Below are positions 13,079 through 62,658 of a stretch of DNA of 64,000 bases, piece by piece; the first letter of the stretch is position 1; every line of letters begins with the position of its first letter. The stretch comes from a virus (Duplodnaviria > Heunggongvirae > Uroviricota > Caudoviricetes). Position numbers and translations under genes: made by a program. The stretch covers positions 866-64,865 of IMG/VR virus record IMGVR_UViG_3300027792_000307. One strand, given 5' to 3'. The notes below the pieces were generated by a model. The model saw nothing but the letters and a program-made list of their open reading frames with translations, had not been told where the DNA came from and did not search any database.

Positions 13079-13080
13079 AT

Positions 13081-15538: not shown

Positions 15539-15546
15539 GAGGAAAA

Positions 15547-15774: not shown

Positions 15775-15792
15775 TAAATTAGGAGATATAAT

Positions 15793-38384: not shown

Positions 38385-38801
38385 ATGGATGTGGATATGA
38401 TTGAATTTATAACTTTATTGATTTTTGGTTTAATTGGTTATGGATTTGGGGTTGTTATTGGATATATTTTTAGAACTCCAGAGAAAAAGGTGGAAGTTAG
38501 AGAAATTAACCCAAAAGTTAATGAAAAAGAATGGAAAAAGTGTATGAAGGGATGCGGGGCATATTACCAGGACAATGGAAAAATCTGGGATAATGAAACG
38601 GCTGTTATAGCTCAACAAACTTGTTACGATGGGTATGTTGAAAAACCTAAGAGAATAAAACACGGAAAGTGTAAGACAAATCCAAATGACCCAGGTAAAC
38701 CTTATAGTGAATGTAATAAAAATGTTAAAAAGAAAAAGAAGAAAAAGAATGATAGTAGACTCAAGGGAACCAAAACAAATAATTCAAAAACTAAAAGGTA
38801 A
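38385..38801 (+). CDS. membrane-anchored hypothetical protein with lysine-rich tail
   Basis: N-terminal TM helix. Confidence 0.5.
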   Translation: MDVDMIEFITLLIFGLIGYGFGVVIGYIFRTPEKKVEVREINPKVNEKEWKKCMKGCGAYYQDNGKIWDNETAVIAQQTCYDGYVEKPKRIKHGKCKTNPNDPGKPYSECNKNVKKKKKKKNDSRLKGTKTNNSKTKR

Positions 38802-45568: not shown

Positions 45569-45994
45569 ATGATAAAAATAAACCCAACAAATTATACACT
45601 AAATTATCCACTTGCAGGTGGAGGAAACTGTGGATTTAAATTAGAAACATTGGAAGATATAAATCTTGTAACAGGAACGGGTCCAGTAGATATAGATATA
45701 GGAAATATGATATTAAGAGATTGTTATATAACTGGATATATTAAAAATTGTAATATGGTTAGATATGAAATTGTAGGGTCGGACGAAGCTTGTAATATCC
45801 CTGGAAGAATTGAAGTTGTTATAGAAGGAGTATTTATGTCCTGCGATGAGCAAAAAAAGGTTAAATTCAAGGGAGAAAAGAAATATAGAAATATATGGAA
45901 AACTGATTATGAAAAAGCTACAGAAATACTAGGAAAATTATCTAAAGTTACTTATGAAGAATATGAGAGACAGGTGTTTTCGGAGAGAATATGA
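45569..45994 (+). CDS. hypothetical protein
   Basis: Start at first ATG after upstream stop. Confidence 0.5.
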   Translation: MIKINPTNYTLNYPLAGGGNCGFKLETLEDINLVTGTGPVDIDIGNMILRDCYITGYIKNCNMVRYEIVGSDEACNIPGRIEVVIEGVFMSCDEQKKVKFKGEKKYRNIWKTDYEKATEILGKLSKVTYEEYERQVFSERI

Positions 45995-48513
45995 TAGAAC
46001 CTATACCAGATTTATTGAAAATGGATTTCGATGGAGATTCTTTAGTATATGTAAATGATAATGAATTCTACTATGGAGACCAAGTTGATAAGAAACTATT
46101 GGAAGACCTAAAGAACAAAGATATACAGGTTTATGGCGGGTATTATGAATTCTATAAGTATAAGAAATCCCCACTAATCTTTTTACTTTGTAGGGGTAAG
46201 TTATCTGGTAAGATTAAAGTTAAGATAGAGAATTTCCTGCCGTATTGTTATATATCTAAAAATGACGGGGAATATAAAACCTACCTTGGAGAACCCTGTG
46301 AGAAGATTTCATTCCAATCATCGCATCCATCGAGGGTTGCCTTCTTTAGGGATTTAAGGAAGAGGAAAGGTTACCCACTGCCACACGAGGCAGATATCCT
46401 TTTCGTGAGGCGATTCCTTTGTGATGTCTACGATATGTTCAAATCAACAGAACCAATCAAACCAAGGGTAGTTATAGTGGATATAGAGACAAATCACCCA
46501 GTTTCAGAGGATATTATATCTTATTGTATAAATGATATGGAAAATGACTTGGTATATGATTCCAAGTTCAATAGTAACTGCCTGGTAATGGCATTGGATT
46601 TATACCAGAAACTGCAAGAATATGACTGGATGACTGGTTGGAACATAAAGTTTGATAAAGACATATTGAATAAAGAATTGCTTCAAATTAAGGACGTTAC
46701 TGATTACATACTCAAGAACATAGGGATGTTTACTAAAGAAGAAATAATTGCCACCTACTCGATAAACACATTCTATAAGGATAAAATAGCCGAATTACTG
46801 GAATCGCTCTCAAACTATGGATATATAGTAGAATTGGAAGAAAAAAAGCTATATATAGGTGCTCCATTCGATCCTGCCATAGAACATTCCATTTCAGATA
46901 TAGATTTACTTACGGTGTCAAAGAAAATGTATGGACAGGAGATTCGTGGAAACTGGACATTAGGTAATGTCGGTCATAGAATCTGCGGCATAGATAAAGC
47001 CTATATAGGTGGAAAACACATTAGAGACCTTTCCGAGGAGGAACTATTCATATATAATACGCTGGATACAATAATCCCAGAGATTGTGGATAACTTCCTT
47101 GGGGGTTTAGAAGCTCATTTGATGCTAGCATGGTCTTTACATTGTATCATAGAAGAAACACAGATAACTGCGGTAGTGAATGATATTGCATTGATTAGAG
47201 CCTATCACAAAGCTGGACTCGTTCTTCCTTCCAGAGATTATGGAAAAGAGAAGGACGATGATGAACCTAAATATAAGGCAGCAGAACCAGATGCCAAGCC
47301 AGGAGTTTACAAAGGAATTATTGCAACGGATTTATCTCACGCCTATCCATTTGCGGTTATATCTAAAAATATATCCCCTGAAACAAAGGATTTAAATGGG
47401 GATAATATAGTGAAATACAAAGATCGAGAAGGAAACGAGAAAGAGATACATTTCAATAATAACAATAGTGTATTTATAGAAACACTTAAAGATATTATGA
47501 CGGAGAGAGCCAAAGCAAAGAAGATGATGGAATCGCTGGAAAAAGGAACACAGGAATGGCGTAAATATAAGTATATTGACTTTGCCTTGAAGACTCAAGC
47601 GGCAGCATTTTCTCACGGTATCTTTGGATGGACAAATTCAAGGATGGTAGATTATGAAGTTGCGGATGCAATTACTGGTATTGTAAGAAATTTATTAGAT
47701 GAAATTAAGAAATCCTGTGAAGCTATAGGTAGGGAATGGATTTACGTACATACTGATAGTTGCTATGTAAATTCACTAAAAGAGGAAAAAGATAAACTTC
47801 TAACATATTTGAATGAACAAATTAGCAAGTATTGTGAAGGTTATTTGGTTCAACCGAATCTCGACTTTAAGAATTTCTATCCAATCGGTTATATTCATTC
47901 CAAGGCAAGAAATGTTCTTGTTCCAGAGGATGGAGATATCTATAATTCTGAGACTTGGGATATTACAGGAATGGATTTCCTCCGCAGTGAAACCCCAGAA
48001 CCTATTGGAGATATAGAAATAAAACTAATATCTATGGTGTTCGAAGGACATACACGGGAAGAACTTATCAATAGCTTACGAGAAATGGTTCAAAATCTTG
48101 TATCTATTGATTCTACGTTGCTTGGGACAATGAAACCCCTACATAAACCTATAACAGCATATGGTAAAATGAAGAAAGATGGAACCTGGGGCGGTGTGCC
48201 ATTTCACATAAAAGCGTTACAGAAAGCAAACGTGGAATACGGGTTTCAAGTTAATCTAAATGAAAAGTTTATGGTGATACCTATTATATCGGATGAAACA
48301 GAAGGAAAGAGAGTTATTAAGAGAAAGAGGGCATTTATTGCGTATAGCCCAGAAACTGGTTTGCCCAGTTCATATAGAATTGATTTTGAGAACTATTTAA
48401 GAAGTAATCTATGGGGAAAAATCGATTCTCTGTTTAATTGTAAACCAAAGGAGTTGGAAAAAGAAATTATGAATGATGATGTGAAGATGTGTTTATTTTC
48501 AGAGTTGATTTAG
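45991..48513 (+). CDS. family B DNA polymerase (divergent)
   Basis: Exo I VVIVDIET; motif A ATDLSHAYPF; motif C YVHTDSCYV (DTD). Motif B not recognisable in canonical K..NS.YG form. Confidence 0.8.
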   Translation: MIEPIPDLLKMDFDGDSLVYVNDNEFYYGDQVDKKLLEDLKNKDIQVYGGYYEFYKYKKSPLIFLLCRGKLSGKIKVKIENFLPYCYISKNDGEYKTYLGEPCEKISFQSSHPSRVAFFRDLRKRKGYPLPHEADILFVRRFLCDVYDMFKSTEPIKPRVVIVDIETNHPVSEDIISYCINDMENDLVYDSKFNSNCLVMALDLYQKLQEYDWMTGWNIKFDKDILNKELLQIKDVTDYILKNIGMFTKEEIIATYSINTFYKDKIAELLESLSNYGYIVELEEKKLYIGAPFDPAIEHSISDIDLLTVSKKMYGQEIRGNWTLGNVGHRICGIDKAYIGGKHIRDLSEEELFIYNTLDTIIPEIVDNFLGGLEAHLMLAWSLHCIIEETQITAVVNDIALIRAYHKAGLVLPSRDYGKEKDDDEPKYKAAEPDAKPGVYKGIIATDLSHAYPFAVISKNISPETKDLNGDNIVKYKDREGNEKEIHFNNNNSVFIETLKDIMTERAKAKKMMESLEKGTQEWRKYKYIDFALKTQAAAFSHGIFGWTNSRMVDYEVADAITGIVRNLLDEIKKSCEAIGREWIYVHTDSCYVNSLKEEKDKLLTYLNEQISKYCEGYLVQPNLDFKNFYPIGYIHSKARNVLVPEDGDIYNSETWDITGMDFLRSETPEPIGDIEIKLISMVFEGHTREELINSLREMVQNLVSIDSTLLGTMKPLHKPITAYGKMKKDGTWGGVPFHIKALQKANVEYGFQVNLNEKFMVIPIISDETEGKRVIKRKRAFIAYSPETGLPSSYRIDFENYLRSNLWGKIDSLFNCKPKELEKEIMNDDVKMCLFSELI

Positions 48514-48526: not shown

Positions 48527-49057
48527 ATGAATAATCTTAAAGATAGTTCAGAACAGATTAGCACATCGAAAGTATTAACAATCGATGAAGCTATACAAAG
48601 AAAAGGGGTGGTAGGACCAGCAGCAGAAGAATTTAAAAATTTAGTCGTTGGTAAGCAAGATGATTTGTTCAAGGATATAATGTGTATCGTATTCGGCTGG
48701 AAATTGCAACCCGATGGAAGTAAGAAGTTGGTGGCTAAACTGCCGAATGGCAAGATTATATTCCCAGACAGGTCTGAACAAGGTGCCGTGGAACCAGGAG
48801 TTCCATATATTTGTCTTGTTTATGAACGAGAACGAGAGGCATTTGCCAAGGTTTGTAGCGAAGAATACCAACCAAAAATATATGTTCAATCCAATCGGAT
48901 AGTAACAATGGTTTGGAGAGAACCATCCGGAAAAGTTACTAATAAAGTTGCTATAGGTAACTCCTTCGAAGAGAGGATTGCCGTCGCAATTAAAGAAATG
49001 GAAGAATTAAAATTGCCTTCGGTGAAGGTAGTTTATAGGTCGAACCAAAGTGGATAG
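48527..49057 (+). CDS. hypothetical protein
   Basis: 176-aa ORF. Confidence 0.55.
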   Translation: MNNLKDSSEQISTSKVLTIDEAIQRKGVVGPAAEEFKNLVVGKQDDLFKDIMCIVFGWKLQPDGSKKLVAKLPNGKIIFPDRSEQGAVEPGVPYICLVYEREREAFAKVCSEEYQPKIYVQSNRIVTMVWREPSGKVTNKVAIGNSFEERIAVAIKEMEELKLPSVKVVYRSNQSG

Positions 49058-49067
49058 GAGAAAAAAT

Positions 49068-49250
49068 ATGTCGAACAATTGTAGTATTTGTGGAATAAGA
49101 ACAATCTTTTATGTATGGAGCACAACAAGAAACTTTCCCTTGGATACATATTTTGGAAAGATGAAAATAACAAATAAAAGAGAAATGAAACAATTGAGAT
49201 ATAATGGAAGGCCAGTCTGCTTTCACTGTTTAAATGAGTTAAAGAAATAG
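49068..49250 (+). CDS. Cys-rich small protein (CSICGIRTIFYVW; paralog of 25772..26011)
   Basis: Shared N-terminal motif with the 25772 gene. Confidence 0.5.
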   Translation: MSNNCSICGIRTIFYVWSTTRNFPLDTYFGKMKITNKREMKQLRYNGRPVCFHCLNELKK

Positions 49251-49260: not shown

Positions 49261-50214
49261 ATGAAAATCGGAGTACAATGTGCAAGTATGGGCGACAGAT
49301 GCGGGATCTGGACCTATACAGATAGATTAGTTACCTATCTAAATAAAATAGATGGTATAAAGGCAGTGCCATTTGTGGATAAAATTAGAGAAAAGGTGGA
49401 TTTAATAAGTTTACAATACGAGCCGGGTTTAATGCAACCAGATAAATTACAGTGGTTCCTTCAGAAATATTCTCAACCCATAGTAATAACTGCTCATCAC
49501 ACAGGTTATCTTCCACAATTTTATCCAATGGTTGATGGTTTTATATTCCATTCAAAGAATCAAATAGTTGGGGACCCGTGGAATTATAAAGTTATTTTAC
49601 ACCCTGCATTAGTATATCCAGAAAAAGGAAAAGAAGCGATGCGTAAGAAATACGGCATTCCTTTAGATAAAAAAGTCCTTGGAACAGCTGGATTTATAGC
49701 AGGAACTGGCAAAGAATTACCAGTATTAATTAGGCCCATATTAGAGAAATTAAAAGACGATGAATTCGTTTACTTTATTACCTCTTTCTGGAAGGGTGGA
49801 GATTTCTCGGCATTAAGTCTTCTTAAAGACGCAGTTAAAGAATATGGTAGAGAGAAACAATTTAAAATAGATATAGACTTCGTAAAAGATGAAACAATGA
49901 ATGAGAAAATCCAATGCTGCGATTTATTATTCTCTTGGAATAACTCAAATGGACCCGGTGGAACATCTGGAATTGCTATGGATATTATAGGTGCACGTAG
50001 AAAACTTATAGTTAAATCAGTTCCTCATTATGAGGAAGCAGCAAAGATTCCAGGAGTTGAAAAGGGTAGAAATCCACCAAAAGAATTCGTGGAAGATGTA
50101 TTCAAGGTATTTCGTGAGGGAGATTTAAATAATGTTCCTGATCCAACTCCATATTCTTGGGAAACTTTAACTCCTCAATATGTGTCTTATTTTAAAGAGA
50201 TCATTGGAGAGTAA
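49261..50214 (+). CDS. putative glycosyltransferase (GT-B fold, weak)
   Basis: C-terminal half resembles GT-B nucleotide-sugar binding domain (GTAGFIAGTGKE..(n)..GGTSGIAMDIIGARRKLIV). Assignment tentative. Confidence 0.45.
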   Translation: MKIGVQCASMGDRCGIWTYTDRLVTYLNKIDGIKAVPFVDKIREKVDLISLQYEPGLMQPDKLQWFLQKYSQPIVITAHHTGYLPQFYPMVDGFIFHSKNQIVGDPWNYKVILHPALVYPEKGKEAMRKKYGIPLDKKVLGTAGFIAGTGKELPVLIRPILEKLKDDEFVYFITSFWKGGDFSALSLLKDAVKEYGREKQFKIDIDFVKDETMNEKIQCCDLLFSWNNSNGPGGTSGIAMDIIGARRKLIVKSVPHYEEAAKIPGVEKGRNPPKEFVEDVFKVFREGDLNNVPDPTPYSWETLTPQYVSYFKEIIGE

Positions 50215-50335
50215 TATGTATATATTTAAATGTTTTGAAATGGGATGCAGGAGTTTATATCATAATAAATAATAAATTATTCATAAAAACTTAGCTTCTT
50301 ACAAAATTTAAACTGTAATAACGAGGAAAATTATT

Positions 50336-50872
50336 ATGATATGGATCTCAGCATTAAGTGATGTTGATTTTTGTGAATATAAATTTTATCATAAATATGT
50401 ATTGAAAACCCCAGAAACTGAGACAAACTCAATGAAAAGTGGAACTATTAATCATTATAATCTAAGTAAGAATCCGAATGGAGATAACGAAGTTTGGATT
50501 AAATATAAGGATGTGCGTGGAAAAATAGACCATATAGGTTATAGTGGAAATACATTAAGAGTTGTTGAATATAAGAGTAATAAAAATGGAGAAGTGTATG
50601 AAAGCCAAAAAATACAAGTAGCAGCCTATTGTTATTTATTGAAAAAGGAACTTCCTCTTCTATTTGAAAAATACGAAAAAGTTCAATGCGTAATTAGAAG
50701 GATTGGGGATTTAAAAGTTCTTTATGAAAGTGATTATACTCCTCTAAAAGAGATAGATATAGAAAAAAAGTTAGAAAAAGTCAATTATATATTAACTGGA
50801 GCCGAAATACCAGAAAAGGCTACAAACAAAAATAAATGTGCGAAATGCGGGTATAAGGATGTGTGTTGGTAA
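50336..50872 (+). CDS. Cas4/RecB-like PD-(D/E)xK nuclease with Cys cluster
   Basis: N-terminal Cys (DFCEYKF), core D..VVEYKS..QKIQVAAY, C-terminal CAKCGYKDVC (Cx2Cx5C) typical of Cas4 Fe-S nucleases. Confidence 0.6.
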   Translation: MIWISALSDVDFCEYKFYHKYVLKTPETETNSMKSGTINHYNLSKNPNGDNEVWIKYKDVRGKIDHIGYSGNTLRVVEYKSNKNGEVYESQKIQVAAYCYLLKKELPLLFEKYEKVQCVIRRIGDLKVLYESDYTPLKEIDIEKKLEKVNYILTGAEIPEKATNKNKCAKCGYKDVCW

Positions 50873-50873
50873 T

Positions 50874-52013
50874 ATGCCTAAAAAATTAACAATTGAAGAA
50901 ATGCAGAGAATTGCTGAATCTAGAGGTGGAAAATGTCTTTCTGAAAAATATATTAATAATAGGACTAAATTAAAGTGGCAGTGTGAGAAAGGCCACATTT
51001 GGGAAGCAGCTCCTAGAAGAAGTTGGTGTCCTTATTGTAGTGAGAATAAAAATGAGGATTTTAATATGGAATTTGATGATATGTCTAAACAAATAATTGA
51101 AGGATGTTTATTAGGTGATGGATGTATTGACGGTTATATTAAAAGAAAAAACCGTACATTTAGAATTTGTTGTATTAAAAAAGAATATATAGAATATCTA
51201 AAAACTAATTTTGAAAAAAATGGAATCAAAGTAGGTAAATTAATCACATATAAAATAAAAGATAGAGATTTTGGCGATTATATATCAAAATGTAAAGATC
51301 AATATAGTATAAGTTTATATGTCTATAAAGAAATAAATAAATTCAGGGATATGTGGTATAAAAATAAAAAGAAAATTATTCCCTCGGATTTAAAATTAAC
51401 ATCAATTAATTTATTACATTGGTTTATTGGTGATGGTAGTTTTACATTTAGAAAAAATAAAAAAGGATGTTGGGCTCACATACAACTATCAACAAATTGT
51501 TTTTCTTTATCGGATATAAATAATTTATTAAATAAATTAAAAGTAGATTTAAATCTTAATTTTAATAAATATGAAGTTAATCCAGGACAATACAAATTAT
51601 CTATTAGTAATTACAAAGAAATATGTAAATTTTTTGATATTATAAAAGATTGCCCAAAAGAATTTGTAAATGATTATGGATATAAATGGCCTACAGAAGA
51701 TATATTTAATTATTTAAGAGAGGCACAACTTCCCAAAAAACAACTTATATTTTATATATGCGATATTTGTAAAGAGATGATATCTGTAAGAAGTGAAACA
51801 GATTTAAAGCGTCATGAGAAAGGAATTTGTCAGAAATGTAACTGTAATATTATGAGAGAAAAAACTATAGATAAACAAAAAGAAAAAAATATAGAAAGAG
51901 ATTCTTTATATTATAGTCTGTATGAATTTGGATATAGTAATAAAGAAATAAAAAATATATTAGATATTAAAAATGATTCTTATGAAGGTTGGAAATATTA
52001 TAGAGGATTATAA
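50874..52013 (+). CDS. LAGLIDADG homing endonuclease with N-terminal zinc-ribbon-like domain
   Basis: LLGDGCIDGY and HWFIGDGSF (two LAGLIDADG motifs); N-terminal C..(n)..CPYC. Confidence 0.65.
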   Translation: MPKKLTIEEMQRIAESRGGKCLSEKYINNRTKLKWQCEKGHIWEAAPRRSWCPYCSENKNEDFNMEFDDMSKQIIEGCLLGDGCIDGYIKRKNRTFRICCIKKEYIEYLKTNFEKNGIKVGKLITYKIKDRDFGDYISKCKDQYSISLYVYKEINKFRDMWYKNKKKIIPSDLKLTSINLLHWFIGDGSFTFRKNKKGCWAHIQLSTNCFSLSDINNLLNKLKVDLNLNFNKYEVNPGQYKLSISNYKEICKFFDIIKDCPKEFVNDYGYKWPTEDIFNYLREAQLPKKQLIFYICDICKEMISVRSETDLKRHEKGICQKCNCNIMREKTIDKQKEKNIERDSLYYSLYEFGYSNKEIKNILDIKNDSYEGWKYYRGL

Positions 52014-52014
52014 T

Positions 52015-52587
52015 ATGAAGTGGAGAAATAGATATTTCTTTGAATGCGAACAATGTGGGAAAATAGTCCAAGAAAGATTGGATAATATAAGAGAAAGAAA
52101 ATATCTACATTGTAGAGATTGTAAATATAAAAAATTACACAAAGATTATATTAATGGAGACTTTAAAATCTGGAATAAAGGAAACCATAAGTGTCTAAAT
52201 TCTGGCAGAACACACTTTAAAAGAGGACAACATATATCTCAAAAAACAGAATTTAAACGAGGAAAACTACATTTACAATGGAAACAAAATAGGAATGAAT
52301 TAAGAACTCCATTAAGAGAATTAATAAGAGGATGTGCTAATTATATAGAATGGAGAGAAAAAATATATAAAAGAGATAAATATACTTGCCAAATTTGTCA
52401 TGAAATGGGAGGCAAATTAGTTTCTCATCATATTAATACATTTGATAAAATATTGAGAAAGTATAATATTAAAGATTTAGAAGATGCATTAATATGTAAA
52501 GATTTATGGGATATTAATAATGGAATTACTTTATGTAATTATTGTCATAAGTATGTTCATAATGCAAATGTATTAAATCAAAATTAA
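52015..52587 (+). CDS. HNH homing-type endonuclease
   Basis: CQICHEMGGKLVSHHINTFD..(n)..NGITLCNYCHKYVHN. Confidence 0.65.
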   Translation: MKWRNRYFFECEQCGKIVQERLDNIRERKYLHCRDCKYKKLHKDYINGDFKIWNKGNHKCLNSGRTHFKRGQHISQKTEFKRGKLHLQWKQNRNELRTPLRELIRGCANYIEWREKIYKRDKYTCQICHEMGGKLVSHHINTFDKILRKYNIKDLEDALICKDLWDINNGITLCNYCHKYVHNANVLNQN

Positions 52588-52594
52588 GGATAAA

Positions 52595-53890
52595 ATGGTA
52601 AAAGAGAAAATATTAATTTGTGGAGATAGTCTTCAAGGACCTACAGGATTTGCCAATGATTTGGCCGGTATTGCGTGGTCTTTAGCAGAGAAATTTGATG
52701 TTCATTGTCTTGGTCTTCAATCATTCCAAGATGAAAAAGTAAAAGTTAATATGCACGGAATAGACCGAGTTATTCATCAACACGCAAATCAACCTAGAGG
52801 TCGTGACCGCTGGGACTTTGGTCAAAGAAGTCTACCACGGATATTGGATAATTTGGAACCAGAAATTCTTCTGACAGTGAATGATATCCAAATGGTTCAA
52901 CATATTCCCGGTATTATGTGTCCAAATACAATTAACTTAAATGCGGTAGATTTACCCTCAAAGGAGTATGTATCAGAAGAGGCATTAATTAATCAACTTA
53001 AGGGACAAATGCAGAAGTTTAAAGAAAAATTCCCAAGAACAACAAAGTGGATTCAATATGCCCCACAAGATGGAGATCCTCCAATGCCGCAGTGGGAACA
53101 TATTTATAGAATGGCTGATAACGTGGTAGCTATGAGTAAATATGGCCAGTGGGTATTTAAGCAGTGGTTTGGGATGAATGTTCCTTGGATTTATCACGGT
53201 GTAGATACAAATATATTTAAAGACCTTAATAACAAACCAAAAGAATTGGAAGACAAATTTATAGTTGGTAATCTTAATAGGAACCAACCACGAAAACAAC
53301 CAATTCGGACTATGATGGCATTTGCAAAATTTGCAAAGGATAAAAAGGATGTAGCATTACATATGCAGATGGATTGGAACGATGAATTCGGGTGGCCTAT
53401 AGAATACTTTGTGCAACAATATGGACTAGGTAATAAAATGATTCAACCAGCCCCTGTAGGAATTGGAAGAAAACAAGTAGCTAATATCTATAATATGTGG
53501 GATTTAAATCTAAATGCAACAGGTGGAGAAGGATTTGGTCTTACACATATAGAAGGATTTGCTTGCGGGGTTCCATCTTTAGGTTGTGACTATACAACAA
53601 GTAGAGAACTTATTATGGAAGGAGAACCTTCTCCAAGAGGATCCTTATTAAAAGTATTGGATTTACACTGGCAGATGATGGATGTAGCAGCAGTTCGTAG
53701 ATCTTTAGTGGATATTGATGATATGGCAAATGTAATGAATAAATACTATTATAATAGACAATTGGTACAAGAGCATGGTAAGAACGCCCAAGAATGGACT
53801 AAACAGAACGTTGCATGGGAAGTTGTAGGTAAACAGTGGATTAAATTTGTTGAAGATGTATTATCAGGTGATGATAAAGATGCAAAGTAG
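52595..53890 (+). CDS. GT4-family glycosyltransferase
   Basis: GGEGFGLTHIEGFACGVPS (E-x7-E motif of retaining GT-B GT4 enzymes). Confidence 0.7.
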   Translation: MVKEKILICGDSLQGPTGFANDLAGIAWSLAEKFDVHCLGLQSFQDEKVKVNMHGIDRVIHQHANQPRGRDRWDFGQRSLPRILDNLEPEILLTVNDIQMVQHIPGIMCPNTINLNAVDLPSKEYVSEEALINQLKGQMQKFKEKFPRTTKWIQYAPQDGDPPMPQWEHIYRMADNVVAMSKYGQWVFKQWFGMNVPWIYHGVDTNIFKDLNNKPKELEDKFIVGNLNRNQPRKQPIRTMMAFAKFAKDKKDVALHMQMDWNDEFGWPIEYFVQQYGLGNKMIQPAPVGIGRKQVANIYNMWDLNLNATGGEGFGLTHIEGFACGVPSLGCDYTTSRELIMEGEPSPRGSLLKVLDLHWQMMDVAAVRRSLVDIDDMANVMNKYYYNRQLVQEHGKNAQEWTKQNVAWEVVGKQWIKFVEDVLSGDDKDAK

Positions 53891-54044
53891 ATTTGCAGAA
53901 ATAACTTGCCCGGTTTGTTGCATAGACTTTAAGATAAAGTTGGAATCAGATGAGTATGTTCCTGACATGGCATACTTATTTTGTCCAATATGTGGTGGAA
54001 TAGATTGCAAAGCAAGATGGATAGATCATGACAATGGTAAGTGA
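53880..54044 (+). CDS. small zinc-ribbon protein
   Basis: CPVCC..(n)..CPICGG..C. Confidence 0.4.
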   Translation: MQSRFAEITCPVCCIDFKIKLESDEYVPDMAYLFCPICGGIDCKARWIDHDNGK

Positions 54045-54255
54045 TATATTAGAAAATGCGATTGCATTTATTTTCATTATATTAATGTTTATATTTTTTT
54101 TCGTGATGCTATAGAGATGATAAGATGGAATTAAGTAAGTGTTGCAGAGCGAAATTAATTAAAACAGGATATACAGATTGCAATTATTGTAGCAAATGTG
54201 GATTGATGTATTTTAAGATAAAAAAGAGATTAAAACCAGAAGAAGAAATTGATGA

Positions 54256-54723
54256 ATGGGAATAGACGTGGTATGTATGAATTTAATAAAAGCATTTGAT
54301 AGAAGCCAGGTATCAGGACTAGAACCAAGACCGAACAGTGTATTGATAATAATAACATCTCCAAACTCTGAATTTCCAGAATTGAGTAAAAAATGGATGG
54401 AAGTTCTACAAATTAAATTCGATGACGTGGAGAACGGATTTGGTCTAAAGGATAAAAAATACACCGCTATGACAGAATACGATGCAGAAACAATTCTGGA
54501 CTTTGTAATAAGAAATATAGACAAAGATATATTCATAAGTTGCGATGCCGGAATGAGTAGAAGTCCCGGAGTTCTTGTTGCTTTAGAACAGATATTCAAT
54601 AGTAAAGATGTAACCGATGACTATCCTTACCACAATAGATATGTTAAGAATAAGATTCGGGATGTTTGGTTTAGAAGGGTTTGGAGAAAAACTTACTCTG
54701 AACCTAAAGTATTTAATATATAG
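54256..54723 (+). CDS. CX5R protein-tyrosine/dual-specificity phosphatase-like protein
   Basis: ISCDAGMSRSPGV = (H)CxAGxSRS P-loop signature. Start uncertain (54256 or 54277). Confidence 0.6.
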   Translation: MGIDVVCMNLIKAFDRSQVSGLEPRPNSVLIIITSPNSEFPELSKKWMEVLQIKFDDVENGFGLKDKKYTAMTEYDAETILDFVIRNIDKDIFISCDAGMSRSPGVLVALEQIFNSKDVTDDYPYHNRYVKNKIRDVWFRRVWRKTYSEPKVFNI

Positions 54724-54731
54724 GAGAAACT

Positions 54732-55079
54732 ATGTGGTTTAAAAAGAAATACACTGTAAAAGCGTATAAATACATAGATAAATTTTATGTAAAGATATAC
54801 CATAAAAATGCCCAATACGGATATATGTCTGTTTATATAAATGGAATTACATTAGAAACATTACAAAAATGGTATTTGAGCGAAGTGGAATCAAATATAG
54901 AAATACAAGATTTATCTATAGATAAACTAATTTTATCAAAGAGCGGTTTATATGCATTATCTTCAGAACAGCAGAAGGAATGGTATAAATCGGATGAATA
55001 TGATACAGAAGAACAAGCTGAACAAGCTTCCAAAACTTTAGGAAGCGAATGGCATGATGTTAAAGTTAGGAGAAATTAA
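54732..55079 (+). CDS. hypothetical protein
   Basis: aggagaaactATG SD. Confidence 0.5.
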   Translation: MWFKKKYTVKAYKYIDKFYVKIYHKNAQYGYMSVYINGITLETLQKWYLSEVESNIEIQDLSIDKLILSKSGLYALSSEQQKEWYKSDEYDTEEQAEQASKTLGSEWHDVKVRRN

Positions 55080-55248
55080 TTATGATAATAAATCAAAATA
55101 CGTTGGCAAAAACCATAACATTAGCAGAAGGTAAAAAGAATATTTTAAAAATTGGAGATGTAAAAGAAGTTATCAAGTTAACTTTGATTGAACTTGCGAA
55201 GTTTGAGGATGAGGAAGTTCTAAAGTTAATTAAGAAATATAAATAAAA

Positions 55249-56142
55249 ATGTTGCTAATTTGTTGGGACTCGCTACGTTTGGACGCGGTAGAACCTCTCA
55301 AAGGAATTTTGGGTGAAGAGAGTTGGACAAGCATTCCTTCCATAGATGGATTTACTGGGCCAATCTTGCCTGCTATAGTAACAGGTAAATCCCCAGAGGA
55401 ATTAGGAATTCAGCGAGATGACTCCGCATTTTATTCAGGAATTGACCCAAGTAAAATAAATGATACTATATTTGATCATTTCGATAGTTATATTACTATA
55501 TCTAGGCTAATTGGACCAGAAACCCAATGTTGCCCACTTCCACCTAGCAGAAGGCAGCAAAATGTATTTATGCCTCCTATAAAATGGAACGCTGTCTCGA
55601 ATTGGGATGTTGACATATGGCGTTATGTGGCAAGAAAATGGTCTCTAGCGACAAATGATTGGTGGGATATGATATTCGCTTGGTCATTTATAACCCACGG
55701 TAACTTTTCTATTTACGATTCGATGGGAGCAGTGGAATCACCAGAGATTAAAGATGGTTCTATGGTAATGCGTAGATTAGCAGAGAATGACCCACAAAAA
55801 CTACGAGATTTATATATGAAGGGAGTATATTATGCAGCAGAAACACTCAGAGGTCTTAATGAAATTTGTGGAGGTCGTGAACTCATCATTTGTTTTGCGG
55901 ACCATAATGAAGCTCTGGGAGAGGAAGTTAATGGCCAAAAATATACGGGTCACTTTCACGGAATGGAAACAATCCCAGGATTAGAGAAAGTTCCGGTTTG
56001 GATTAATAGACCCAACGTAGAATTTCCAAAGGATTTTTCACAATTAAAACTAAAAGATTGGATAGTAGAAATGTATGATAAATACGAAAGAAATAATCCA
56101 GAGGTAATGGAATGGAAGATGAAGAAATTGTATCATTCTTAA
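55249..56142 (+). CDS. alkaline-phosphatase-superfamily enzyme (NPP/phosphodiesterase-like N-terminus)
   Basis: MLLICWDSLRLDAV resembles metal-binding N-terminal motif (hhhhxxDGxRxD) of nucleotide pyrophosphatase/phosphodiesterase-type AP-superfamily enzymes; later HN..G/H-rich patches. Confidence 0.45.
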   Translation: MLLICWDSLRLDAVEPLKGILGEESWTSIPSIDGFTGPILPAIVTGKSPEELGIQRDDSAFYSGIDPSKINDTIFDHFDSYITISRLIGPETQCCPLPPSRRQQNVFMPPIKWNAVSNWDVDIWRYVARKWSLATNDWWDMIFAWSFITHGNFSIYDSMGAVESPEIKDGSMVMRRLAENDPQKLRDLYMKGVYYAAETLRGLNEICGGRELIICFADHNEALGEEVNGQKYTGHFHGMETIPGLEKVPVWINRPNVEFPKDFSQLKLKDWIVEMYDKYERNNPEVMEWKMKKLYHS

Positions 56143-56226
56143 ATGGTTTACAATATCATTTAGATAGGATTCAAGAAGATATTAATCGCTTGAAAGATGT
56201 TTTGATGTCAAAAAAGGAGAAAAAGA

Positions 56227-56760
56227 ATGAGTAAAATTTTAGAAACAGCAGCTATTATTGTGGCTATTGTCGCAATAATGATATCCTGCGTAGCAGTGGG
56301 ATTAAACCGAGAACCAGGACCAAAGGGTAGTATTGGTCAAATTGGTCCAATAGGTCCAACTGGGGCAACTGGGGCAACAGGTCCGCAAGGATTACCAGGA
56401 AAAGATGGAATTAATGCACCGGTAAATAAACTCCCAATTATAAAACTTAATAATATGGGTGGAAATTACGTGGCAATTCTCCCGAGGATTTGTAATTATT
56501 GCAAATATGAGTATACAATTTCAGTAGTTATAGATGATCCAGAAGATGAAACAATGAAAGTTACATTCAATTATGCAAATAGTATTTCTGGACCTTGGAA
56601 TGAGGTTAGTGTATTCTATGGTAAGGATGGAACTTACTCAGCCACCACAGAATTCCAATATGAAACCCCGCAGGGAGTTAAAAAAATCTATTGGTTAGTT
56701 GAAGCATGGGATGGTTCGGATATATCAACGGAAATTTTCCCACAAGAAATTTCCCCTTAG
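56227..56760 (+). CDS. membrane-anchored collagen-like (Gly-X-Y repeat) protein
   Basis: TM helix then GPKGSIGQIGPIGPTGATGATGPQGLPGKDG (10 consecutive G-X-Y triplets). Confidence 0.75.
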   Translation: MSKILETAAIIVAIVAIMISCVAVGLNREPGPKGSIGQIGPIGPTGATGATGPQGLPGKDGINAPVNKLPIIKLNNMGGNYVAILPRICNYCKYEYTISVVIDDPEDETMKVTFNYANSISGPWNEVSVFYGKDGTYSATTEFQYETPQGVKKIYWLVEAWDGSDISTEIFPQEISP

Positions 56761-58354: not shown

Positions 58355-58639
58355 ATGAAGAAACTGAAAACATTGAAAGACATAGAAGGTATTATAAATC
58401 CATCAGAATATTCGTGGGAAATAGATGAAATTGGCATAGGAAGTAATGAACTAAGAGAAGTAGCAAAAGAATGGATAAAAGAACTTGGGGAACCAGTTCC
58501 TATTTATGGAATTCCTATTATAACGGCAAAACTTAAGGAACTATCAGATAAGGAATTTGTTGAAGCATATAACTTACATATGAGAACTTCTGCACAAAAT
58601 ATTCTAAAACACTTCTTCAATTTGGAGGAAGAACAATGA
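58355..58639 (+). CDS. hypothetical protein
   Basis: 94-aa ORF. Confidence 0.5.
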   Translation: MKKLKTLKDIEGIINPSEYSWEIDEIGIGSNELREVAKEWIKELGEPVPIYGIPIITAKLKELSDKEFVEAYNLHMRTSAQNILKHFFNLEEEQ

Positions 58640-58935
58640 AAAAATTAAGTATATTAATCATAATACTAATAATCTTATCTTGTATATCCATTTCTGGGTG
58701 TACAGAAGAAGAGGAGAAAATACTGGAAGGAAAATTAACTGGTGTGGATTACAGAAAAGGAGGATGGGCAGAATACGATAAAATTGTTTTGATTATTGAT
58801 TCAATTCCATATAGATTCTATAATGGATTTGAATTTAAATTATTAGCAGAAGGGTTTATAAATAAAACTATTATAATAACTTATACCATTCGGAGTAATG
58901 AATATCCAATAATAAGTAAAATAGAGGAAAAATGA
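58636..58935 (+). CDS. putative lipoprotein
   Basis: Signal peptide + lipobox-like ISGCTEEE. Confidence 0.5.
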   Translation: MKKLSILIIILIILSCISISGCTEEEEKILEGKLTGVDYRKGGWAEYDKIVLIIDSIPYRFYNGFEFKLLAEGFINKTIIITYTIRSNEYPIISKIEEK

Positions 58936-59171
58936 GATTTATACCATTAACTGAAATGAAAGCAAATGAAATAGGAACCATATCTTGCTTGAATTGTGGT
59001 GATACCTGTTGCCAACGCCTTTGTGATATGGGTTTAACCAAGGGAACAGAGATTAAATTGCTTCGAATGGTTCCTTATGGGCCAGTTGAAATAACTGTGA
59101 GAGGAACAAACCTTGTCATAGGAAGAGGAATGGCTAGTAAGGTTTATGTTGAGGTGGAAGAATGTTTATAG
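58932..59171 (+). CDS. FeoA-domain-like small protein
   Basis: ..GTISCLNCGDT..RLCDMGLTKGTEIKLLRMVPYGPVEITVRGTNLVIGRGMASKVYV fits the FeoA SH3-like pattern (rL.dmGl.pG..i.v.r..p.gP..i.v.g..lalgr..A..i.V). Confidence 0.55.
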   Translation: MRFIPLTEMKANEIGTISCLNCGDTCCQRLCDMGLTKGTEIKLLRMVPYGPVEITVRGTNLVIGRGMASKVYVEVEECL

Positions 59172-60530: not shown

Positions 60531-60775
60531 AAGTAATTAATAAACTCTTTTGTCCGATTTGCGGTAAAGAAATGGATGCAGATTGTCATGCAGTTGAAGA
60601 TGGTGCAAAATGGATGGGTAATCCACCAGATTGGTCGCTTGATACAAAGAAAGCAAGAGATATAGATAATTGGATTTGTATAGACCATCCAGAACATAAG
60701 CATTGCGTGGTTTTTTGTAGAGAAGACATTAAAGATTGGTTAGAAGAAAAATATAAAGAGGAAAGTGGACTATGA
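60527..60775 (+). CDS. zinc-ribbon hypothetical protein
   Basis: CPICGKEMDADCH..(n)..H..HC. Confidence 0.5.
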   Translation: MKVINKLFCPICGKEMDADCHAVEDGAKWMGNPPDWSLDTKKARDIDNWICIDHPEHKHCVVFCREDIKDWLEEKYKEESGL

Positions 60776-62658
60776 AAGTGATAAAAAAAAGTGGTTTTCG
60801 CCAAGATTATCAGGTGGAAAAGATTAAGATAGCCTTACAGAAAACAGCAAAATCAATTAATGAGGAATTCAAGGAAGCAGATTGGAAAGAATTCAAACCA
60901 AGGGTTCTTGCTAGATTAGAACCTGTTATGGAAAATAGAGAGGAAATCTTCTTCTGGGAGATAGACGATGCAGTTATTGATTCATTACTTCGAAGCAGAT
61001 TCAAGGAGATTGCCAAGGAATATATCCAGTCACGAAGTAGGATTAGAAAGGATAAACTTAATGATTTGGGTCTTTCTCCAGTCGCTATGCAATTATTAAA
61101 GGAACGATATTTAAAGAAAGATGACAAAGAGGAACCCATAGAGACAGCGAAGGAAATGATGTGTAGAATTGCCACTGCAATTTCAAGTGTAGAAAAACAA
61201 CAAAAATTGAAGGAAGAATATTCAGAGAAGTTTACTAATATGCTCTGCAATTTGGAATTCCTCCCAAATAGTCCCTGCATTTTTAATGCTGGAACTGGTA
61301 GAAGAGGAACACTAGCAGCTTGCTTTGGTTATACAATAGAAGATTCTCTGGACTCTATATTTGAAACTCTTAAATTATCTGCTAAAACATTCCAAATGGG
61401 TGGAGGAGTAGGAATTAATATATCTAAATTAAGGGAAGCTGGTTGCAGTATAAAATCTTCCCACGGCACCTCTTCTGGGCCTATAGCATTCTTATATCTA
61501 TTTGATACTATGGTAGAAACAGTTAAATCTGGTGGAGCTCGTAGAGGGGCTATGTTGTCTATGATGCATTATACGCACCCAGATATAGAGAAGTTTATAG
61601 ATTGCAAGAATCAAACAAACCAATTAAATAATATGAATGTAAGCGTTCTTTTAGATGATAAATTTATAAAAGCTGTAGACAAGGACGAGTTAATTGTTCT
61701 AAAATCACCTAAAACTGGAAAAGAGATAAACGCAATTCCTGCAAGGCAGCTATTAGAATCTATAGCAATTCATATCTATAATACAGGTGAACCGGGAGTA
61801 TTGTTTGATGAGAATATAAATAAGGACAATCCAACACCACATCTTGGTCCTTTAGATGTAATTAATCCGTGCGGTGAAAGCCCTATGAGAGGAACTCCTG
61901 GAGAAAGTTGTAATCTTGGTTCTATAAATCTTACAAAATTTGTAAGAGATAAAGATGTAGACTGGGATAGACTCTCCGAAATAACCAAATTAGCAGTGAG
62001 ATTTTTAGATAATATGATAGATGCAAGTGCTTATCCATCGAAGATAGTAGAACAATCAGTTAAAGATACCAGAAAGATAGGATTAGGCATTATGGGATTT
62101 GCTGATTTGTTAATTATGATGGATATAAAATATAGCTCTAAACAGGCAATAGAAATGGCTGGTAAGATTACTTCTTTCATAAGTGATGTAGCAAGTCAAT
62201 ATTCTACAGAATTAGGAAAAGAAAAAGGAACCTATCTCGCTTATAAGGAAGGATATAAGAATAGAAGGAATTCTGTTTGCTGTATTGTTGCACCAACGGG
62301 AACTTTATCTCTATTAGCTGGATGCTCTTCTGGGATAGAACCGAACTTCTCAAAGGAATACACAAGAATTTTGGGCAACGAGATAGTAAAAATTGCTCAT
62401 CCGCTCAAGGATAATTCTTCATTCGAAATGACATATGATGTTCCGGTAGAGCAACATTTAGCAATACAAGCAGAAGTTCAGAAAAATATTGAGGGAGCAA
62501 TTAGTAAGACAATCAACGCACCAGAAAATATAACTGTAAGAGAAATAAAAGAATTGATAATCAAGGCCCATAAATTAGGAATTAAAGGATTTACTTTGTT
62601 CAGGCAGAATTGTAGTAGAGAAGCTCTTATAAAAGGATGTACGGAGTGTCAAATATGA
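60772..62658 (+). CDS. nrdJ: class II (adenosylcobalamin-type) ribonucleotide reductase with N-terminal ATP-cone
   Basis: ATP-cone start VIKKSGFRQDYQVEKIKIAL; NSPCIFNAG; GGGVGINISKLREAGCSIKSSHGTSSGPIAF; NPCGE and CNLGSINL active-site motifs; C-terminal Cys pair GCTECQI. No glycyl-radical motif. Confidence 0.75.
   Translation: MKVIKKSGFRQDYQVEKIKIALQKTAKSINEEFKEADWKEFKPRVLARLEPVMENREEIFFWEIDDAVIDSLLRSRFKEIAKEYIQSRSRIRKDKLNDLGLSPVAMQLLKERYLKKDDKEEPIETAKEMMCRIATAISSVEKQQKLKEEYSEKFTNMLCNLEFLPNSPCIFNAGTGRRGTLAACFGYTIEDSLDSIFETLKLSAKTFQMGGGVGINISKLREAGCSIKSSHGTSSGPIAFLYLFDTMVETVKSGGARRGAMLSMMHYTHPDIEKFIDCKNQTNQLNNMNVSVLLDDKFIKAVDKDELIVLKSPKTGKEINAIPARQLLESIAIHIYNTGEPGVLFDENINKDNPTPHLGPLDVINPCGESPMRGTPGESCNLGSINLTKFVRDKDVDWDRLSEITKLAVRFLDNMIDASAYPSKIVEQSVKDTRKIGLGIMGFADLLIMMDIKYSSKQAIEMAGKITSFISDVASQYSTELGKEKGTYLAYKEGYKNRRNSVCCIVAPTGTLSLLAGCSSGIEPNFSKEYTRILGNEIVKIAHPLKDNSSFEMTYDVPVEQHLAIQAEVQKNIEGAISKTINAPENITVREIKELIIKAHKLGIKGFTLFRQNCSREALIKGCTECQI

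What the first reader, a model, noticed from the sequence alone, without database searches (positions are those of the whole stretch)
49261..56760. Surface-modification block: two glycosyltransferases, a CX5R phosphatase, an alkaline-phosphatase-superfamily enzyme and a membrane-anchored collagen-like protein
The block holds a GT4 enzyme with the EGFGLTHIEGFACGVPS motif, a second GT-B-like protein, a dual-specificity-type phosphatase (ISCDAGMSRSPG), an AP-superfamily enzyme (LLICWDSLRLD) and a TM-anchored protein with 10 uninterrupted Gly-X-Y triplets. Together they suggest production and decoration of a glycosylated, collagen-like surface fibre (virion fibre or host envelope remodelling). A CX5R phosphatase in this context could target a sugar-phosphate or lipid rather than protein.
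Basis: partly seen in the sequence, partly recalled or inferred. Interest (0 to 1): 0.55.

Follow-up and report, generated by a model that had tools for sequence, protein, structure and literature searches.

The report
Viral glycosyltransferase pair plus accessory genes

Summary
All five identifications hold up.
- 52595-53890 is a GT4 glycosyltransferase (Pfam above cut-off, EX7E motif).
- 49261-50214 has a GT-B fold (pLDDT 94; MshA/BshA, E 7e-14).
- 54256-54723 has an invariant CX5R loop that matches only dual-specificity phosphatases, weakly.
- 56227-56760 has an N-terminal hydrophobic anchor, 11 Gly-X-Y triplets and a conserved C-terminal domain matching no known family.

The "block" is not one unit. 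In 80 related metagenome loci the backbone is PolB, an unknown 176-aa gene, the GT-B gene, GT4, the AP enzyme and RNR.
- The two transferase genes are adjacent in 43 of 44 loci. Here a Cas4-like nuclease and two homing endonucleases split them.
- The AP enzyme is always present (12/12). The phosphatase is rare (2/12).
- The collagen-like gene occurs in about half of the loci, at varying positions.

All four enzymes lack membrane or signal segments. Relatives carry many further sugar-pathway genes nearby. A glycan function is therefore likely, but the link to a collagen fibre is unsupported. These are new sequence families of known folds, of moderate interest.

The parts
45991..48513 (+). Family B DNA polymerase, the upstream anchor of the conserved backbone
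   Evidence: Pfam DNA_pol_B, E 6e-19. It lies upstream of p176 and the GT-B gene in related loci.
48527..49057 (+). p176, a conserved protein of unknown function that always precedes the GT-B gene
   Evidence: Adjacent to the GT-B gene in 47/47 loci. No meaningful Pfam, NCBIfam, PHROG or PDB match.
49261..50214 (+). GT-B-fold, GT4-like protein (317 aa). A Gly-rich loop with Lys151 is present; the EX7E position reads G233...D241.
   Evidence: AF2 model pLDDT 94.3. Foldseek top hits are MshA, GlgM and BshA, E 7e-14, TM 0.70-0.79. No Pfam hit. Family alignment is A3.
50336..50872 (+). Cas4-like PD-(D/E)XK nuclease, part of the insertion that splits the GT pair
   Evidence: Pfam Cas_Cas4 3e-13 and PDDEXK_1 2e-14. 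PADLOC Cas4 3e-18. Absent from related loci.
50838..52013 (+). LAGLIDADG homing endonuclease. The start is uncertain: the JGI gene call is 384 aa, the ORF list gives 391 aa.
   Evidence: Pfam LAGLIDADG_2 6e-19 and phrog_11023 2.5e-24. The same insertion site is used in L026 and L080.
51973..52587 (+). HNH homing endonuclease
   Evidence: Several PHROG HNH families, down to E 9e-8.
52595..53890 (+). GT4 glycosyltransferase (431 aa). The EX7E motif is at residues 312-320 (nt 53528-53554).
   Evidence: Pfam Glycos_transf_1 at 34.3 bits, above the 26.4 cut-off. phrog_2170 3e-23 over the full length. Within 600 bp of the GT-B gene in 43/44 loci.
54256..54723 (+). CX5R cysteine phosphatase. The P-loop C96-S103 is at nt 54541-54564 and FDD 55-57 at nt 54418-54426. 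The likely true start is M8, at nt 54277.
   Evidence: phrog_5614 3e-17. C96, R102 and S103 are invariant. The family profile hits dual-specificity phosphatases in the PDB almost exclusively, E 1.5e-3. Present in 2/12 loci.
54732..55079 (+). p115, an unknown ORF not found in the relatives examined
   Evidence: No family hit. tblastn finds it only in copies of the same virus.
55249..56142 (+). Soluble alkaline-phosphatase-superfamily enzyme on a sulfatase-type scaffold. The candidate catalytic set is D7, T36 (nt 55354-55356), H150, D218-H219 (nt 55900-55905) and H235.
56227..56760 (+). Collagen-like membrane protein. The hydrophobic anchor is residues 8-26 (nt 56248-56304), the 11 Gly-X-Y triplets are residues 31-63 (nt 56317-56415), and the conserved C-terminal domain is residues 64-177 (nt 56416-56757).
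   Evidence: Pfam Collagen 1.3e-5. Hydropathy. A family of 170-245-aa proteins shares the architecture. The C-terminal domain has no Pfam or PDB match.
60772..62658 (+). Class I/II-type ribonucleotide reductase large subunit, the downstream anchor of the backbone
   Evidence: Pfam Ribonuc_red_lgC 1e-108. It lies downstream of the AP gene in relatives.

Best explanation
The region is a stretch of the collinear backbone of an uncultured large dsDNA virus lineage. Related contigs run to 80-145 kb, and the host is probably archaeal.

The fixed gene order is PolB, p176, the GT-B-fold protein, GT4, a variable interval, the soluble AP-superfamily enzyme, a variable interval, then RNR.

Shown:
- The GT-B-fold protein and the GT4 enzyme form an obligately adjacent pair.
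- All four enzymes lack membrane or secretion signals.
- The AP enzyme keeps a complete metal and nucleophile set, with Thr in place of the sulfatase formylglycine residue.
- The CX5R phosphatase and the collagen-like membrane protein are accessory genes sitting in the variable intervals.
- A Cas4-like nuclease and two homing endonucleases have been inserted between the two transferase genes in this virus.

Inferred:
- The two transferases act together in the cytoplasm of the infected cell, either as consecutive steps or as a complex.
- They build a short glycan from nucleotide sugars on a protein acceptor, most likely a virion protein or another virus-encoded surface protein.
- The AP enzyme forms a phospho-threonine intermediate and hydrolyses or transfers a phosphoester on a soluble substrate.
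- The phosphatase, where present, trims a phosphate in the same or an unrelated pathway.
- The collagen-like protein is a separate trimeric, membrane-anchored stalk-and-head protein. It may or may not be one of the glycosylated targets.
For: Folds and motifs.

Synteny in 80 loci:
- p176 next to the GT-B gene in 47/47.
- GT-B and GT4 genes within 600 bp in 43/44, mostly 0-12 bp apart.
- AP gene 2.6-7.7 kb downstream in 12/12.
- Phosphatase in 2/12.
- Collagen-like C-terminal domain in 5/10, at changing positions.

The nuclease insertion is absent from the relatives at this site. LAGLIDADG and HNH genes recur at the same site in L026 and L080.

No hydrophobic segment in any of the four enzymes.

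Glycan context in relatives:
- GT2, GT4, MptE-like, GT8, NeuB, CMP-sugar synthetase and radical SAM genes in L005.
- Mannose-P isomerase, NTP-transferase, epimerase/dehydratase, GT4, methyltransferase and sulfotransferase genes in L008.

The closest GT4 homologues in isolated phages (24-29% identity) lie in or beside morphogenesis modules of S-CBS4 and TJE1.

Archaeal-type genes: Rad51/RadA, ERCC4 with HhH, and a weak primase small subunit match; an eS17 gene in relatives.
Against: - No acceptor has been identified. No capsid, portal or terminase gene lies in the 64-kb window, so the virion type is unknown.
- Here the transferase genes sit in the replication and nucleotide-metabolism part of the genome, not in a morphogenesis module.
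- Conserved order in a collinear viral backbone does not prove a functional link between the transferase pair and the AP enzyme.
- The GT-B-fold protein lacks the first Glu of EX7E and could be non-catalytic.
- This window has no sugar-nucleotide synthesis genes.
- The phosphatase assignment rests on a motif and weak profile hits. Its fold was not modelled.
Confidence: 0.5

Rival explanations
1. The five genes form one dedicated module. The collagen-like protein is the fibre, the two transferases glycosylate it, and the phosphatase and AP enzyme process a sugar-phosphate or lipid intermediate or add phospho-substituents.
For: In this virus the collagen-like gene lies 85 bp downstream of the AP gene. 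In L065 it lies just upstream of the AP gene, and in L021 and L042 it lies between GT4 and the AP gene. The repeat contains GPT, GAT, GAT triplets. From my own knowledge, Thr in the Y position is the O-glycosylation site in Bacillus BclA. Virus-encoded collagen together with collagen glycosyltransferases is known in Mimivirus (PMC9546862, PMC12279948).
Against: In four relatives the gene lies 7-9 kb upstream, directly after the ERCC4 nuclease gene and on the other side of PolB. Half of the complete 20-kb loci have no such gene within 10 kb, whereas all have the transferases and the AP enzyme. One family member has no collagen repeat. Thr-containing triplets are not conserved across the family. 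No hydroxylase is present. The phosphatase is rare (2/12).
Confidence: 0.15
2. The enzymes remodel the host envelope. They alter host lipid-linked glycans, S-layer or pilus glycoproteins from the cytoplasmic side, so as to block superinfection or change receptor display. The collagen-like protein is inserted into the host membrane.
For: The sets of sugar genes in relatives are variable, which fits an arms-race surface. NeuB, a CMP-sugar synthetase and MptE-like proteins are, from my own knowledge, typical of nonulosonic-acid decoration of surface appendage proteins. The collagen-like protein has a signal-anchor-type N terminus.
Against: No lipid-carrier enzyme, flippase or oligosaccharyltransferase was seen in the window or the loci. 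The AP enzyme lacks the membrane domain that MCR-1, EptA and LtaS use to take phospho-alcohols from lipids.
Confidence: 0.2
3. The genes act on DNA or nucleotides. The transferase pair glycosylates viral DNA bases, and the AP enzyme and phosphatase process nucleotides. This would explain the fixed position between PolB and RNR.
For: Linkage to PolB and p176 upstream is strict, and dCMP deaminase, dUTPase, RNR and glutaredoxin lie downstream. All the enzymes are cytoplasmic. From my own knowledge, the DNA glucosyltransferases of T4 also have a GT-B fold.
Against: No ThyA-type hydroxymethylase was found in the window or in 0.87 Mb of related loci. That query sequence was recalled from memory. 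No TET/JBP or other 2OG oxygenase is present in the window. The best structural matches are GT4 enzymes acting on sugars, lipids and small molecules. The relatives carry classical glycan-pathway genes beside the pair.
Confidence: 0.1

Closest known systems
GT4 retaining glycosyltransferases (MshA, BshA, PimA, GlgM) and the GT4 genes of phages S-CBS4 and TJE1
   Same: The 431-aa protein passes the Pfam Glycos_transf_1 cut-off and has EX7E. The 317-aa protein has the same two-Rossmann GT-B fold, with a Gly-rich loop and Lys at the start of the C-terminal half.
   Different: The 317-aa family has no detectable sequence similarity to Pfam GT families or to its GT4 neighbour. It reads G...D where GT4 has E...E, and it is about 60 residues shorter than typical GT4 enzymes. 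Identity to the phage GT4 genes is only 24-29%.
Two-protein GT-B glycosyltransferases such as GtfA/GtfB of the accessory Sec system (analogy from my own knowledge)
   Same: There is an obligately adjacent pair of GT-B-fold genes, one canonical GT4 and one divergent. A weak NCBIfam match links the GT4 to GtfA (E 4.5e-4, far below the cut-off).
   Different: No complex has been shown. No SecA2/SecY2 genes or serine-rich acceptor was seen. The divergent partner keeps a plausible nucleotide-binding loop, so it may be catalytic.
The PF00884 branch of the alkaline phosphatase superfamily (sulfatases; phosphoethanolamine and phosphoglycerol transferases MCR-1, EptA/C, LtaS)
   Different: It has Thr rather than Cys or Ser, and no Arg at +4, so it is not a formylglycine sulfatase. 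It has no N-terminal membrane domain and no signal peptide. At 297 aa it is a minimal core. No Pfam, NCBIfam, PHROG or PADLOC model detects it. No homologue exists in 50,697 GenBank phage records.
Dual-specificity (cysteine-based) phosphatases, and the putative DUSP of jumbo phage Psa21 (PHROG 5614)
   Same: It has a C-x5-R-S P-loop reading CDAGxSRS and a conserved FDD about 40 residues upstream. The family profile hits dual-specificity phosphatases in the PDB almost exclusively. It is 32% identical to the Psa21 protein.
   Different: The score is far below the Pfam DSPc cut-off (15.3 against 33.5 bits). The fold was not modelled. In Psa21 the gene lies among early genes next to PhuZ, with no glycan context.
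Prokaryotic and viral collagen-like proteins (BclA, Scl1/2, phage tail-fibre collagen repeats, Mimivirus collagens)
   Same: It has an uninterrupted Gly-X-Y run followed by a globular C-terminal domain. It matches many PHROG tail-fibre families through the repeat only.
   Different: It is very short (11 triplets) and has an N-terminal signal anchor rather than an LPXTG or fibre-attachment domain. Its C-terminal domain matches no Pfam or PDB family and no GenBank phage record.
Virus-encoded glycosylation machineries of giant viruses (review PMC9614988)
   Same: A virus lineage carries its own transferases and, in relatives, its own sugar-nucleotide pathways.
   Different: The likely host domain and the genome size differ. 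No glycan structure or acceptor is known here.

Membership tests
CAZy GT4 / Pfam Glycos_transf_1 (431-aa protein) | Profile match above the curated cut-off | tested here: met
   34.3 bits against a cut-off of 26.4. phrog_2170 'glycosyltransferase' E 3e-23 over the full length.
CAZy GT4 / Pfam Glycos_transf_1 (431-aa protein) | EX7E motif in the C-terminal Rossmann domain | tested here: met
   E312-GFGLTHI-E320.
CAZy GT4 / Pfam Glycos_transf_1 (431-aa protein) | Retaining transfer from an NDP-sugar | not testable with these tools
   Needs an enzyme assay.
GT-B fold glycosyltransferase (317-aa protein) | Two-Rossmann GT-B fold | tested here: met
   pLDDT 94.3. Foldseek MshA E 7e-14, TM 0.75, and 317 PDB hits at E<=1e-3.
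GT-B fold glycosyltransferase (317-aa protein) | Sequence membership in a curated GT family | tested here: not met
   No Pfam, NCBIfam or PHROG hit. hhalign to the neighbouring GT4 gives 1% probability.
GT-B fold glycosyltransferase (317-aa protein) | EX7E catalytic or donor-binding motif | tested here: not met
   The aligned positions read G233 and D241. D241 is invariant. The positional equivalence is my own reading, not a structural superposition.
Alkaline phosphatase superfamily (297-aa protein) | Core alpha/beta fold | tested here: met
Alkaline phosphatase superfamily (297-aa protein) | Conserved metal ligands and nucleophile | tested here: met
   D7, T36, H150, D218, H219 and H235 are invariant or nearly so. 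hhalign aligns them to the matching motifs of a PF00884 protein. Model geometry was not inspected.
Formylglycine-dependent sulfatase | C/S-x-P-x-R motif at the nucleophile | tested here: not met
   The sequence is T36-G-P-I-L. Thr is invariant and there is no Arg at +4.
Phosphoethanolamine / phosphoglycerol transferases (MCR-1, EptA, LtaS) | N-terminal multi-helix membrane domain with an extracytoplasmic catalytic domain | tested here: not met
   297 aa in total, with a maximum 19-residue hydropathy of 0.95.
PglZ (BREX) and other defence-associated AP-fold proteins | Match to defence-system profiles | tested here: not met
   No PADLOC hit.
Cysteine-based dual-specificity phosphatase (155-aa protein) | C-x5-R(S/T) P-loop | tested here: met
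   C96, R102 and S103 are invariant in 22 sequences.
Cysteine-based dual-specificity phosphatase (155-aa protein) | Profile match above the curated cut-off | tested here: not met
   DSPc 15.3 bits against 33.5. The PDB profile search gives E 1.5e-3 to DUSP10.
Cysteine-based dual-specificity phosphatase (155-aa protein) | General-acid Asp on an upstream loop; PTP fold | tested here: inconclusive
   F55-D56-D57 are invariant, 39-40 residues before C96.
Collagen triple helix | Uninterrupted Gly-X-Y repeats | tested here: met
   11 triplets. Pfam Collagen scores 25.3 bits, just under the 27.2 cut-off.
Collagen triple helix | Trimerisation through a flanking domain | not tested
   No multimer prediction was available.

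The most novel reading that the evidence does not exclude
The universally conserved PolB, p176, GT-B, GT4 gene string is a replication-coupled modification system. On this reading the transferase pair glycosylates viral DNA or a replisome or genome-bound protein in a widespread, probably archaeal, virus lineage. The soluble Thr-type sulfatase-fold enzyme would supply or trim a phosphorylated intermediate. This would be a new route to genome or nucleoprotein modification.
Probability: 0.1. Interest if true: 0.75.

Novelty: new member of a known kind. Interest (0 to 1): 0.35.

Why it matters
Three protein families that no curated library recognises now have firmer descriptions.
- The 317-aa protein has a GT-B fold.
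- The 297-aa protein is a soluble AP-superfamily enzyme with a Thr nucleophile.
- The collagen-like membrane protein carries a conserved C-terminal domain that matches nothing known.

All three belong to a virus lineage found in many sediment metagenomes.

A transferase pair present in every examined locus of the lineage, together with variable islands of sugar-pathway genes in relatives, suggests that glycan decoration is central to these viruses. That can be tested once a host or particles are available. The result also corrects the picture of a single fibre operon.

Tried and rejected
- An IMG/VR scan with PolB found no relatives.
- Single-sequence PDB searches of the phosphatase, the AP enzyme and the GT-B protein gave nothing useful.
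- The afdb50 fold library was not available.
- p176 had no PHROG or PDB match, as a single sequence or as a 24-sequence profile.
- The C-terminal domain of the collagen-like protein had no Pfam or PDB match. My impression that it resembles a cadherin- or Ig-like domain is from memory and untested.
- PADLOC gave no defence-system match for any enzyme. The PglZ/BREX idea was dropped.
- hhalign between the two transferase families was negative, so they are not recent paralogues.
- The genome-contig scan returned two loci: one contig binned in a Pirellulales MAG and a distant cellular sulfatase-family gene from a Labilithrix MAG. Neither says anything about the host.
- Literature searches did not turn up a described lineage with this gene set.
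- A ThyA search was negative.
- tblastn of the AP enzyme, the GT-B protein and the collagen C-terminal domain against GenBank phages found no match.


Full report
CONTEXT

The window has a low GC content (about 0.26-0.40, mostly near 0.32), and nearly every sizeable ORF is on the + strand. Many of the ORFs are very small. No tRNA gene was found.

Recognisable genes are mostly for replication and nucleotide metabolism:
- family B DNA polymerase (45991-48513)
- a Rad51/RadA-type recombinase (34323-35372)
- an ERCC4 nuclease with a HhH domain (38686-39381)
- a separate DEDD-type exonuclease (41142-41813)
- a weak match to the primase small subunit (43552-44445)
- ribonucleotide reductase (60772-62658)
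- a MoxR-type ATPase, and a DUF2201 metallopeptidase with a VWA-like domain
- an SPFH protein and a cohesin-dockerin protein

No capsid, portal or terminase gene is visible. No ORF other than PolB and RNR exceeds 431 aa.

Identical genes occur on JGI metagenome contigs from samples 3300009082, 3300027762 and 3300009009. Relatives lie on contigs of 80-145 kb. A ribosomal protein eS17 gene in relatives, together with the RadA and ERCC4 genes and the weak primase match, points to an archaeal host. This is an inference. GenBank phages contain only very distant PolB matches of about 22% identity.

CHECKING THE OBSERVATION

GT4 enzyme (52595-53890). It passes the Pfam Glycos_transf_1 cut-off and has EX7E at residues 312-320. 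It matches a phage glycosyltransferase PHROG over its whole length.

Second GT-B-like protein (49261-50214).
- It matches no curated family.
- It belongs to a well-conserved family, 43-93% identical across 115 clusters.
- A model built from 29 sequences is confident (pLDDT 94.3).
- The model matches GT4 structures best: MshA, GlgM and BshA, with E down to 7e-14 and TM 0.70-0.79.
- It keeps a Gly-rich loop ending in an invariant Lys151. Where GT4 has E...E it has G233 and an invariant D241.
- It may therefore be catalytic with altered chemistry, or it may be a partner subunit.

AP-superfamily enzyme (55249-56142).
- It also has no curated match. Its family is conserved at 43-85% identity across 76 clusters.
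- The model is confident (pLDDT 89.6).
- Foldseek matches MCR-1 and EptC phosphoethanolamine transferases, sulfatases, LtaP and NPP.
- A profile-profile comparison with a cellular PF00884 protein from a Labilithrix MAG gives 94.6% probability. It aligns D7, T36, H150, D218-H219 and H235 with the family's metal and nucleophile motifs.
- The nucleophile segment reads T-G-P-I-L...T-G. This copies the spacing of the sulfatase signature, but Thr replaces Cys or Ser and the Arg is missing.
- The enzyme is therefore not a formylglycine sulfatase. It more probably handles phosphoesters through a phospho-threonine intermediate. That last step is an inference from how the superfamily works.

CX5R phosphatase (54256-54723).
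- C96, R102 and S103 are invariant, and an FDD triplet lies about 40 residues upstream.
- It matches PHROG 5614, of unknown function, at 3e-17.
- As a family profile it hits dual-specificity phosphatases in the PDB almost exclusively, at a modest E of 1.5e-3.
- Homologues start at M8, so the real start is probably nt 54277.
- I could not model its fold.

Collagen-like protein (56227-56760).
- It has a strongly hydrophobic segment at residues 8-26.
- It has 11 uninterrupted Gly-X-Y triplets. This is the only such run in six frames, with about 5e-9 expected by chance.
- A library-wide search found many 170-245-aa proteins with the same layout: anchor, collagen run of variable length, and the same roughly 110-residue C-terminal domain with W...W.VE.WDG.DI.
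- That C-terminal domain matches nothing in Pfam or the PDB.

Three genes lie between the two transferase genes:
- a full-length Cas4-like nuclease
- a LAGLIDADG homing endonuclease
- an HNH endonuclease

There are also small ORFs and an unknown 115-aa ORF between the phosphatase and the AP enzyme.

IS IT ONE MODULE?

I fetched 80 related loci from metagenomes, using the GT-B family as the query, and scored the genes in each.

| Feature | Result |
|---|---|
| p176 immediately before the GT-B gene | 47 of 47 loci |
| GT4 within 600 bp after the GT-B gene | 43 of 44 loci, mostly 0-12 bp |
| AP gene 2.6-7.7 kb downstream (loci with at least 9 kb of flank) | 12 of 12 |
| Phosphatase (same loci) | 2 of 12 |
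| Phosphatase (all loci) | 6 of 80 |
| Collagen-like C-terminal domain (complete 20-kb loci) | 5 of 10 |

- Across all loci, the collagen-like C-terminal domain sits 7-9 kb upstream of the GT-B gene in four. Look-ups of two family members place such a gene directly after the ERCC4 nuclease gene. In three loci it lies between GT4 and the AP gene.
- One member (L021) has no collagen repeat.
- The Cas4-like gene was not found in the related loci.
- LAGLIDADG and HNH genes occur at the same GT-B/GT4 junction in two other relatives (L026 and L080), which marks a recurrent homing site.
- Gene lists from four further relatives show the same backbone, with RNR downstream.

The stable elements are therefore PolB, p176, the GT-B gene, GT4, the AP gene and RNR. 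The phosphatase, the collagen-like protein, p115 and the nucleases occupy variable intervals.

WHAT IT PROBABLY DOES

All four enzymes lack hydrophobic segments, so they work in the cytoplasm.

This window contains no sugar-nucleotide pathway genes. Relatives have inserted many beside the same backbone:
- GT2, a second GT4, MptE-like proteins, GT8, radical SAM/SPASM enzymes, NeuB and a CMP-sugar synthetase in L005.
- Mannose-phosphate isomerase, an NDP-sugar transferase, an epimerase/dehydratase, a GT4, a methyltransferase and a sulfotransferase in L008.

This supports a glycan function for the fixed pair.

The nearest GT4 homologues in isolated phages lie between the portal and head genes (S-CBS4), or next to sugar-nucleotide genes and the terminase (TJE1). 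This is weak support for virion proteins as acceptors.

My best reading, at about 0.5 confidence, is as follows.
- A cytoplasmic two-enzyme glycosylation step acts on a viral or virus-directed protein.
- The AP enzyme is a separate backbone phosphoesterase or phosphotransferase whose substrate is unknown.
- The phosphatase and the collagen-like membrane protein are optional additions.

RIVAL READINGS

Dedicated fibre module. This keeps some support, because in four viruses including this one the collagen-like gene lies in the GT4-to-AP interval, and its repeat has Thr-containing triplets. Lineage-wide linkage is absent, however.

DNA- or nucleotide-directed function. This fits the position between PolB and RNR. 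Against it:
- No ThyA-type hydroxymethylase was found in the window or in 0.87 Mb of related sequence. That query was recalled from memory.
- No 2OG oxygenase is present in the window.
- The structural matches are to sugar, lipid and small-molecule GT4 enzymes.

Defence or anti-defence role. This finds no support in PADLOC. In jumbo phage Psa21 the closest phosphatase homologue sits among early genes beside PhuZ, with no glycan neighbours.

NOVELTY

The folds and chemistries are known kinds. Four things are new:
- three sequence families invisible to curated libraries and absent from 50,697 GenBank phage records
- a soluble minimal sulfatase-scaffold enzyme with a Thr nucleophile
- the strict pairing of a canonical GT4 with a divergent GT-B protein next to PolB
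- a family of very short membrane-anchored collagen-like proteins with a new head domain

I rate this as new members of known kinds, of moderate interest (0.35).

Noticed in passing
window 48527-49057: An unknown 176-aa protein lies between PolB and the GT-B gene in every related locus (47/47). It has no meaningful Pfam, NCBIfam, PHROG or PDB match, even as a 24-sequence profile.
   Followed up: partly
window 50336-52587; L026 1907-2401; L080 1147-2148: A Cas4-like nuclease, a LAGLIDADG endonuclease and an HNH endonuclease are inserted between two genes that are otherwise adjacent. LAGLIDADG and HNH genes occupy the same junction in two other relatives, which suggests a recurrent homing site.
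   Followed up: partly
window 49050-49250 and 25772-26011: Two small zinc-ribbon ORFs share the N-terminal motif CSICGxRTIFxVW. They look like paralogues, and one sits between p176 and the GT-B gene.
   Followed up: no
window 23481-24155: A 224-aa protein carries both a cohesin domain and a dockerin domain. This is unusual for a virus.
   Followed up: no
window 16030-17160 and 18392-19669: A MoxR-type AAA ATPase (phrog_1297, E 1e-77) lies near a DUF2201 metallopeptidase with a VWA-like domain.
   Followed up: no
window 1-4000: GC is higher here (0.37-0.40), there are few ORFs, and there is a 19-bp tandem repeat at 143-207. This could be a genome end or origin region.
   Followed up: no
window 6800-16000: There is a run of about 40 head-to-tail small ORFs (50-95 aa), all on the + strand, with almost no family matches.
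   Followed up: no
L010 (record of P0241) and L012 6361-6648: Relatives encode a ribosomal protein eS17 homologue (PF00833) just after the RadA gene. No such hit was seen in the window at E<=1e-4.
   Followed up: no
L005 1568-4021 and 13471-18833; L008 6328-11938: Relatives carry variable islands of sugar-pathway genes around the same backbone: GT2, GT8, MptE-like, NeuB, CMP-sugar synthetase, radical SAM, NDP-sugar transferase, dehydratase and sulfotransferase.
   Followed up: partly
L008 2717-4906: The ribonucleotide reductase gene of one relative contains an intein.
   Followed up: no
L021 14864-15388: One member of the collagen-like family keeps the hydrophobic N terminus and the C-terminal domain but has no Gly-X-Y repeat.
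   Followed up: no
window 58636-59171: A 99-aa protein has a lipoprotein-like signal ending in ISGC. It is followed by a FeoA-domain protein that is conserved in relatives.
   Followed up: no
window 26322-26948 and 40621-41145: There is a truncated-looking C5 cytosine methylase match and a second DNA methyltransferase (phrog_3816, E 2.5e-29). DNA methylation is the only DNA modification function seen in the window.
   Followed up: no
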